Source: Negaprion brevirostris (taxonomy: Eukaryota). Taken from it: 64,000 nt of DNA. The stretch lies in contig JARDVH010000132.1 of NCBI GenBank assembly GCA_030324005.1, positions 91,635,905 to 91,699,904 of the forward strand. The letters run 5' to 3'. Below the pieces are notes generated by a model, which did not search any database, was not told the DNA's origin, and saw nothing but the letters and a program-made list of their open reading frames with translations. Shown in pieces: positions 32,533 through 32,798 of this stretch. Each line of letters opens with the position of its first letter. The first letter of the stretch is position 1. The position numbers were made by a program, and so were the translations under genes.

Positions 32533-32798
32533 CTGACAGAGCGGCTGCTGTGCAGGAGGAGACGGGATAAATTCTCCCCCATTGTGGACGCGCGGTTCGC
32601 GGTAACTCTCCTGGCATTTGCAGATCCGAAAGGAAGAGTACGTGCACCTTGAATACATTCCTGCGGCATTCTGCCGTGCATGCTTTGAAGTGTAATGCAT
32701 TTGTGGGCGAATAATGCGCGTAACCTTGATGGAAGAGCGTTTGTAATTTAAATGCCACTAAAACACTCATCGATCACCAGCAAAAGCATGCAAACTTC
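32533..32798 (-). ncRNA. Candidate HOTAIRM1-like antisense lncRNA exon 1
   Basis: The minus strand reads AAGTTTGC...GTGATCGAT...GTTTTAGTGGCATTTAAAT...CGCTC...AGGTTACGCGC, resembling the 5' end of human HOTAIRM1 as I recall it. It is divergent from HoxA1 and ends at a minus-strand donor CAG|GTAAGA at 32533/32532. Confidence 0.5.

What the first reader, a model, noticed from the sequence alone, without database searches (positions are those of the whole stretch)
32533..32798. HOTAIRM1-like antisense first exon in a shark
Seen: the minus strand 32797-32716 reads aagtttgcatgcttttgctggtgatcgatgagtgttttagtggcatttaaattacaaacgctcttccatcaaggttacgcgc, and a strong donor CAG|GTAAGA closes an exon of about 265 nt; a possible acceptor (ttttcttcag) lies at 32239-32248. 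Known, from recall: human HOTAIRM1 starts divergently from HOXA1 with AAGTTTGC...GTGATGGAT...GTTTTAGTGGCATTTAAAT...CGCTC...AGGTGACGCGC. Inference: the lncRNA or its promoter-proximal element dates to the gnathostome ancestor; I know it mainly from tetrapods.
Basis: partly seen in the sequence, partly recalled or inferred. Interest (0 to 1): 0.7.

Follow-up and report, generated by a model that had tools for sequence, protein, structure and literature searches.

The report
Shark-lineage start of lncRNA HOTAIRM1
Just upstream of the HoxA1 gene, this genome (likely a shark or ray) keeps the stretch at which the known human non-coding RNA HOTAIRM1 begins and likely makes its own spliced antisense RNA there, which would fill a gap in a family already reported from lancelets to humans; the conserved parts are more likely DNA control elements than RNA domains.

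Summary
The sequence is as described. The minus-strand block 32797-32715 matches the first ~82 nt of the cloned human HOTAIRM1 (63 of 83 columns by eye, with a 19-nt exact run). It is the best RF01975 hit in the 2.69-Gb genome (E 0.009) but lies below the gathering score. The donor at 32533 is the strongest antisense donor in the HoxA2-A1 gap. In a relative's presumed RNA runs two contigs end where a branch at this donor would cut them, but no spliced junction or strand was shown. The proposed acceptor at 32239-32248 is unsupported. HOTAIRM1_2 is mostly human intron, lacks both human acceptor AGs here and has a HoxB2-B1 paralogue, so it is likely an old duplicated enhancer. HOTAIRM1 is already published for frog, gar, medaka and amphioxus, so the dating is not new. 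Verdict: new member of a known kind.

The parts
32715..32797 (-). Conserved block homologous to the first ~82 nt of human HOTAIRM1 exon 1; lies 33 nt upstream of the HoxA1 E-box
   Evidence: 63 of 83 columns by eye against the human clone; RF01975 model 4-69 at 32697-32765 is the best hit genome-wide, E 0.009; full-model score 32.2 bits, below gathering score 70
32533..32797 (-). Predicted first exon of the antisense RNA, 265 nt (human about 290 nt); its 3' two-thirds show no clear likeness to human
   Evidence: transcription start inferred from the human clone, not measured; fold z -0.16
32527..32535 (-). 5' splice site CAG|GTAAGA, last exon base 32533
   Evidence: Top minus-strand donor of the gap; X6 contig 24 would end at 32533 and X3 contig 17 at 32562 (donor plus 30 exon letters) if their unseen letters are ungapped
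32538..32539 (+). AG of a possible sense-strand acceptor (rival reading: spliced long HoxA1 leader)
   Evidence: Sequence; fits both contig ends 7 nt worse than the minus-strand donor
32239..32248 (-).
   Evidence: Short tract with an upstream AG; no joint to it among the 3 joints listed, and X1 contig 6 runs across it unspliced (32139-32252)
30176..30393 (-). Rfam HOTAIRM1_2 region; mostly human intron 1; likely a duplicated enhancer with a HoxB paralogue
   Evidence: 114.2 bits, gathering score 37; human acceptor AGs read AA (30218-30217) and GG (30194-30193) here; HoxB2-B1 copy 46.1 bits, reached by 0 of 200 shuffles
32830..32889 (+). Predicted HoxA1 core promoter: CACGTG (32830), TATATT (32850), GGAAGTG (32883); same three motifs at the same spacing before HoxD1
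   Evidence: -142/-122/-89 against -138/-120/-90 from the M-N-S ATG; 11 of 2000 shuffles score as high
32957..33581 (+). HoxA1 coding exon 1
   Evidence: GT..AG joint skipping 438 nt in X6
34020..34372 (+). HoxA1 coding exon 2 (homeobox)
27042..28679 (+). HoxA2 (two reading frames), the other flank of the gap
37335..37351 (+). DR5 retinoic-acid-response-type element about 3 kb 3' of HoxA1; likely the known Hoxa1 3' RARE
   Evidence: Pattern scan, sequence; identity with the mouse RARE rests on position and recall (its paper is listed in PMC3227721)
29923..29928 (-). AATAAA, one of 7 minus-strand hexamers in the gap; candidate 3' end signal
   Evidence: X3 contig 15 would end near 29909 if 514 unseen letters are colinear; weak

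Best explanation
The block is the orthologue of the 5' end of human HOTAIRM1 and likely marks the antisense start of a two-way HoxA1 promoter, from which a non-coding RNA is likely made and likely spliced at the 32533 donor. Steps: (1) shown: homology, order and spacing of two HOTAIRM1 regions between HoxA1 and HoxA2. (2) Inferred from human and mouse: retinoic acid, through the 3' DR5 element, switches on the shared promoter, which fires HoxA1 on the plus strand and the lncRNA on the minus strand from about 32797. (3) Hinted by contig ends: part of the RNA is spliced at 32533 and part reads on unspliced through the gap. The acceptor is unknown and is probably not the human one. (4) Inferred: what selection keeps is mainly DNA, namely the promoter-proximal 80 nt and an older enhancer inside intron 1 (Rfam HOTAIRM1_2), plus the act of divergent transcription, not a folded RNA domain.
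For: Human clone alignment and 19-nt run. RF01975 best hit in the genome. RF01976 at 114 bits, same strand, 2.3 kb downstream. Strongest antisense donor at a human-like exon length; about 2% chance of so strong a site in 300 nt. X6 contig 24 covers 32617-33579 and has 83 further letters, of which the 30 shown match 32586-32615 at 23 of 30 by eye, so it would end at 32533. X3 contig 17 has 350 letters beyond 32212, reaching 32562. Both fit a graph branch at the donor with 30-letter overlap, and the HoxA1 joint in the same run shows that same 30-letter side. The gap 30400-32259 is covered in 11, 13, 13 and 12 of 15 bins in four runs whose contigs total 68-114 Mb; X3 has depth 11-14 there and none in the 3 HoxA1 intron bins. 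For DNA-level constraint: similarity stops about 80 nt from the start, next to the core promoter; no fold signal (z -0.16); the Rfam models carry no base pairs; both human acceptors are lost while intronic motifs are kept; HoxB paralogue. Human shares one short conserved promoter and RA kinetics between the two genes (PMC10619521).
Against: No joint from 32533 among the 3 joints listed; contigs give no strand; the runs are only guessed to be RNA, come from two other organisms (3 samples, 2 studies), and no silent control stretch was laid. The contig-end arithmetic rests on 53 and 350 unseen letters in a region under 80% alike. X6 contig 24 runs without a break through both predicted start sites, which a strictly divergent pair would not give, so sense leaders or read-through may contribute. 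RF01975 is below its gathering score; no further HOTAIRM1 Rfam region hit at E up to 10 in 24000-36000. The donor cannot be aligned to the human donor. An equally strong minus-strand donor motif occurs inside the HoxA1 intron (33985), so such motifs arise by chance. The laid stretch started at 30400, so junctions into the HOTAIRM1_2 block could not appear.
Confidence: 0.62

Rival explanations
1. The block is only a HoxA1 promoter or leader element; no spliced antisense RNA is made, and the RNA in the gap is sense read-through from HoxA2 or a long HoxA1 leader, possibly spliced to the plus-strand AG at 32538-32539.
For: X6 contig 24 is continuous from the block into spliced HoxA1. A plus-strand AG lies 7 nt from the donor. 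Contigs are unstranded. Conservation hugs the promoter.
Against: Both contig ends fit the minus-strand donor at 0 nt offset and the plus-strand acceptor at 7 nt. The donor is the strongest in the gap at a human-like distance. A long sense leader would carry 7 upstream ATGs. Antisense transcripts are reported at this place in frog, gar, medaka and amphioxus.
Confidence: 0.2
2. A true RNA-level orthologue: the conserved 5' block and the HOTAIRM1_2 region are RNA elements that bind chromatin complexes or HOXA1, as reported for human HOTAIRM1.
For: The conserved block begins on the same 8-mer as the human clone. The unspliced human RNA, which holds the intronic block, is the activating form (PMC5388432). 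Blocking splicing in Xenopus gives a phenotype. Relatives' contigs run into the HOTAIRM1_2 side of the gap.
Against: No fold signal, no base pairs in the models, human exon 2 acceptors lost, no likeness to the rest of the human RNA seen by eye or by Rfam, and a paralogue at HoxB where I know of no matching lncRNA (recall).
Confidence: 0.14
3. The likeness is chance, or the stretch encodes a small protein.
For: RF01975 is below gathering. A 106-codon stop-to-stop frame overlaps on the minus strand (32453-32773).
Against: 19-nt exact run, top genome-wide hit, second Rfam region in order. The relative's contig has single-base insertions at 32632 and 32636, inside that frame.
Confidence: 0.03

Closest known systems
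HOTAIRM1 (human/mouse; Rfam RF01975, RF01976)
   Same: Position between HoxA1 and HoxA2, antisense orientation of the homologous blocks, same first 8-mer, 76% identity over about 83 nt, similar first-exon length, HOTAIRM1_2 about 2.3 kb downstream.
   Different: The rest of exon 1 is not alignable, both human exon 2 acceptor AGs are absent, no further Rfam region is found, and transcription and splicing are not shown here.
Hotairm1 of Xenopus, gar, medaka and amphioxus (PMC6784235)
   Same: Syntenic antisense unit 5' of Hox1; spliced and unspliced forms in Xenopus.
   Different: Those were assigned by synteny; here there is alignable sequence to human but no direct transcript. The text of that paper has no 'shark' (its Figure 2 was not seen).
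HOXA-AS3 / HOXB-AS3 (PMC8330917)
   Same: Hox antisense lncRNAs whose promoters, more than their RNA bodies, are conserved to cartilaginous fish and between paralogous clusters.
   Different: A different place in the cluster (Hox5-7); there the paralogous element is the promoter, here the A/B paralogue is an intronic block 2.3 kb from the start.
HAGLR / HOXD-AS1 (PMC4805430)
   Same: Non-coding RNA next to HoxD1; this genome's HoxD1 promoter shares three core motifs with HoxA1 and has a strong minus-strand donor at a similar distance.
   Different: No likeness to the HOTAIRM1 5' block (93 of 200 shuffles score as high) or around the donor (209 of 2000); no transcript data.

Membership tests
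HOTAIRM1 lncRNA | Lies between HoxA1 and HoxA2, opposite to HoxA1 | tested here: met
   paralogous Hox1-Hox2 gaps located on other contigs
HOTAIRM1 lncRNA | Sequence homology to human exon 1 | tested here: met
   63 of 83 by eye with a 19-nt run; best genome-wide RF01975 hit; limited to the first ~80 nt
Rfam RF01975 (HOTAIRM1_1) | Score at or above gathering (70 bits) | tested here: not met
   32.2 bits, 27.5 bits
Rfam RF01976 (HOTAIRM1_2) | Score at or above gathering (37 bits) | tested here: met
   114.2 bits; the HoxB copy also passes (46.1 bits), so the model alone does not diagnose the lncRNA
HOTAIRM1 lncRNA | Transcribed from the antisense strand | tested here: inconclusive
   Gap covered by contigs of 4 of 4 presumed RNA runs from relatives; strand not given
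HOTAIRM1 lncRNA | Spliced, first exon closed by a used donor | tested here: inconclusive
   Strong donor; two contig ends fit; no joint listed
HOTAIRM1 lncRNA | Human exon 2 acceptors and downstream exons conserved | tested here: not met
   The AGs read AA and GG; no further HOTAIRM1 model hit at E up to 10
HOTAIRM1 lncRNA | Non-coding | tested here: inconclusive
   One open 106-codon frame, broken by indels in one relative's contig; no codon-level test across species
HOTAIRM1 lncRNA | Induced by retinoic acid together with HoxA1; acts on 3' HoxA genes | not testable with these tools
   Only a DR5 element 3' of HoxA1
Duplicated conserved non-coding element (HoxA/HoxB) | Alignable copy at the matching place of a paralogous cluster | tested here: met
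   For 30176-30393; absent from the HoxD gap (148 of 200 shuffles score as high)
Duplicated conserved non-coding element (HoxA/HoxB) | Enhancer activity | not testable with these tools
   Only motif content (Hox/Pbx-like GATTGAT and TTTATG kept in both copies)

The most novel reading that the evidence does not exclude
HOTAIRM1 and HAGLR/HOXD-AS1 are ohnologues born from one two-way Hox1 promoter that predates the Hox cluster duplications (shared E-box, TATA-like and GGAAGTG core, with an antisense donor about 450 nt upstream of both ATGs), and the Rfam 'RNA region' HOTAIRM1_2 is really a pre-duplication Hox1-Hox2 enhancer kept in both HoxA and HoxB of cartilaginous fish.
Probability: 0.3. Interest if true: 0.55.

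Novelty: new member of a known kind. Interest (0 to 1): 0.33.

Why it matters
It closes the cartilaginous-fish gap in the HOTAIRM1 record with alignable sequence, where deeper orthologues rest on synteny alone, and it contradicts the early claim that HOTAIRM1 is mammal-specific (PMC3541083), which later work had already overturned. More usefully, a slow-evolving genome separates what is kept from what is not: the start block and an intronic block survive, the human splice acceptors do not, and the intronic block has a HoxB twin. That warns against reading an RF01976 hit as proof of the lncRNA and gives two short elements to test as DNA against RNA function.

Tried and rejected
No RNA holder was listed for this genome; this is not evidence either way. 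A DNA search with 32500-32960 found only the locus itself. The 5' block has no detectable copy before HoxD1, and the HoxB1 promoter lies in a 451-N gap, so it could not be tested. BLASTN of the HoxA gap against the B and D gaps missed the paralogous block that the Rfam model and a gapped alignment found (against 38, 43). Folding the predicted exon gave no signal (84 of 200 shuffles fold as well). The Xenopus morpholino target reads as a GTAAG donor but matches the shark intron start at only 5 of the next 15 bases by eye: not significant. The loose contig ends that I compared by eye (31036, 31100, 31178, 30777) were diverged homologous sequence, not junctions; 17 loose ends and 4 pieces were not shown. 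Other Rfam hits below gathering (mir-1252 and the like; MIR841 in HoxB) are chance or plain hairpins. Papers not held: Hara 2018, Zhang 2009, Santini 2003, Ravi 2009. Earlier scan notes held nothing on this locus.

Full report
Setting. The window holds HoxA4, A3, A2 and A1 on the plus strand. HoxA1 starts at 32957, with exon 1 ending at 33581 and exon 2 at 34020-34372. The genome (2.69 Gb) has two more clusters with Hox1 and Hox2 genes, which I read as HoxB (C154) and HoxD (C31, with an Evx-like hit at its far end and a group 2 gene). A kept HoxD2 and no fourth full cluster in that search fit an elasmobranch (PMC3707753, passages). 'Shark' is therefore a reasonable inference, not a shown fact; a ray is not excluded.

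Observation. All quoted features are present. The cloned human spliced HOTAIRM1 is printed in Suppl. Table S3 of PMC5388432 (passages of the supplement). Compared by eye, it starts on the same 8-mer as 32797 and matches 63 of 83 columns to 32715, with a 19-nt exact run (chance 3e-7 for 300x300 nt, 5e-4 for the window against the whole transcript). Beyond that the two are not alignable. RF01975 gives 32.2 bits, under its gathering score of 70, yet this locus is its best hit in the genome (E 0.009 against 0.91 for the next; 46 of 70,682 candidates scored). No other HOTAIRM1 model hit at E up to 10 in 24000-36000.

Splice signals. CAG|GTAAGA at 32533 is the top minus-strand donor in the gap, and 5 sites score as high in 124,768 nt (matrix from recalled frequencies). 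Across the window and the B and D loci the rate implies about 2% for any 300 nt (13 sites in 176,956 nt). It gives 265 nt against about 290 nt in human (my count). One of the equally strong sites lies in the HoxA1 intron on the minus strand, a reminder that chance hits exist. The proposed acceptor has a short tract and an AG about 10 nt upstream. The human clone joins exon 1 to a 5' extension of exon 2 that matches model positions of about 181-220 (the underline marking it was lost in the text, so the junction is inferred from the model), which makes positions 1-180 intron. The two human acceptor AGs read AA (30218-30217) and GG (30194-30193) here, while the intronic part is very well kept.

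Expression. No run on record as RNA holds this stretch; 6 of 12 listed runs are guessed RNA from two other organisms. Four were laid on 30400-34090 at 80% likeness (3 samples, 2 studies, contigs only). The gap 30400-32259 has depth in 11, 13, 13 and 12 of 15 bins (X1, X2, X3, X6), in assemblies of 68-114 Mb. X3 has depth 11-14 there and none in the 3 HoxA1 intron bins, which argues against DNA carry-over, but no silent control was laid. X6 contig 24 covers 32617-33579, takes the HoxA1 GT..AG joint and stops 30 letters into exon 2. At its other end it has 83 unaligned letters; the 30 shown match 32586-32615 at 23 of 30 by eye, so it would end at 32533 if the other 53 are ungapped. X3 contig 17 has 350 letters beyond 32212, which would reach 32562, i.e. 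the intron plus 30 exon letters. Both are what a graph branch at the donor gives. A plus-strand acceptor at 32539 would fit both 7 nt worse. Against this: none of the 3 listed joints starts at 32533, strand is unknown, the arithmetic uses unseen letters, the other runs leave 32260-33499 uncovered (a filter can drop records), and contig 24 runs unbroken across both predicted start sites. Junctions into the HOTAIRM1_2 block could not appear because the laid stretch began at 30400.

What is conserved. The predicted exon folds no better than shuffles (z -0.16) and the Rfam models have no base pairs. The 5' block ends 33 nt from a core of CACGTG, TATATT and GGAAGTG, which recurs at the same spacing before HoxD1 (11 of 2000 shuffles). 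HoxD1 also has a strong minus-strand donor at about -456 against -444, though across a 100-N gap and without alignable flanks (209 of 2000). The HoxB1 promoter falls in an N gap. RF01976 passes gathering at exactly two places in the genome, the HoxA2-A1 and HoxB2-B1 gaps (34 of 129,796 candidates scored). The two copies align at score 91.5, reached by 0 of 200 shuffles (maximum 42.5), and the HoxD gap has none. Both copies keep GATTGAT and TTTATG motifs, which resemble Hox/Pbx and Cdx/Hox sites (PMC5831782 and PMC8330917, passages). A DR5 element lies at 37335-37351.

Mechanism. Most likely a two-way HoxA1 promoter, switched by retinoic acid as in human and mouse (PMC10619521, PMC4805430, passages), makes HoxA1 and an antisense RNA that is partly spliced at 32533. 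Homology and layout are shown; transcription of the gap is indicated in relatives; strand, splicing and RA response are inferred. I put orthology of the block at about 0.97, use of the donor in an antisense RNA at about 0.7, and mainly DNA-level constraint at about 0.6.

Known work. HOTAIRM1 was called mammal-restricted in PMC3541083 (passages; its .doc supplements with lncRNA sequences could not be read), then found by Rfam models in birds, alligator and turtle (PMC4378963, passages) and by synteny in Xenopus, gar, medaka and amphioxus (PMC6784235, parts 1-2 of 4 and passages; figures not seen). A review lists it as 'Chordata' and names bamboo shark only for HOXA11-AS and HOTTIP (PMC8293171, passages). 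Searches for HOTAIRM1 with shark, amphioxus, bamboo shark or chondrichthyan terms (listings, 20 of 28 shown) gave no paper describing a chondrichthyan HOTAIRM1. Searches for paralogous Hox elements and passages of PMC3595034, PMC2746220 and PMC3227721 did not name an A1-A2/B1-B2 pair; the human-based list in PMC3595034 gives HOXA5/B5 and HOXA4/D4. The papers most likely to list these blocks (Ravi 2009, Santini 2003, Hara 2018: not held; Matsunami 2010 and Oulion 2010: seen only as references) were not read, so prior description as anonymous conserved elements is likely.

Verdict. Real, correctly recognised, and a new member of a known kind. The dating claim is already covered in print; the transcript is probable but unshown. 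The more interesting leads are the HoxB twin of HOTAIRM1_2 and the shared HoxA1/HoxD1 promoter layout. Interest 0.33.

Noticed in passing
window 30176-30393 and L002:7973-8203: Rfam HOTAIRM1_2 matches both the HoxA2-A1 and the HoxB2-B1 gap above gathering; likely a duplicated enhancer rather than an RNA domain.
   Followed up: yes
window 32830-32889 and L004 (HoxD1 upstream region): HoxA1 and HoxD1 share CACGTG, TATATT and GGAAGTG at the same spacing, and both have a strong antisense donor about 450 nt upstream of the ATG; possible link to HAGLR.
   Followed up: partly
window 37335-37351 and 37551-37563: DR5 element (likely the Hoxa1 3' RARE) and a nearby DR1; further DR5 patterns at 15991 (+) and 4851 (-), DR2 at 35597 (-) and 46492 (+).
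   Followed up: no
L003:266-402: Long, nearly perfect inverted repeat in the HoxB2-B1 gap; the MIR841 score reflects the hairpin only. Possibly a small mobile-element remnant.
   Followed up: no
window 32270-32367 (-): A strong pyrimidine-rich acceptor (32367) and a donor (32270) could frame a 98-nt internal exon; no contig is laid there.
   Followed up: partly
window 33624-33995: The HoxA1 intron is covered by low-depth contigs in X1 and X6 (unspliced RNA or DNA) but not in X2 or X3.
   Followed up: no
window 57449-59850: Open frames that resemble LINE-type endonuclease/reverse transcriptase pieces (by recall of the motifs), beyond the 3' end of the cluster.
   Followed up: no
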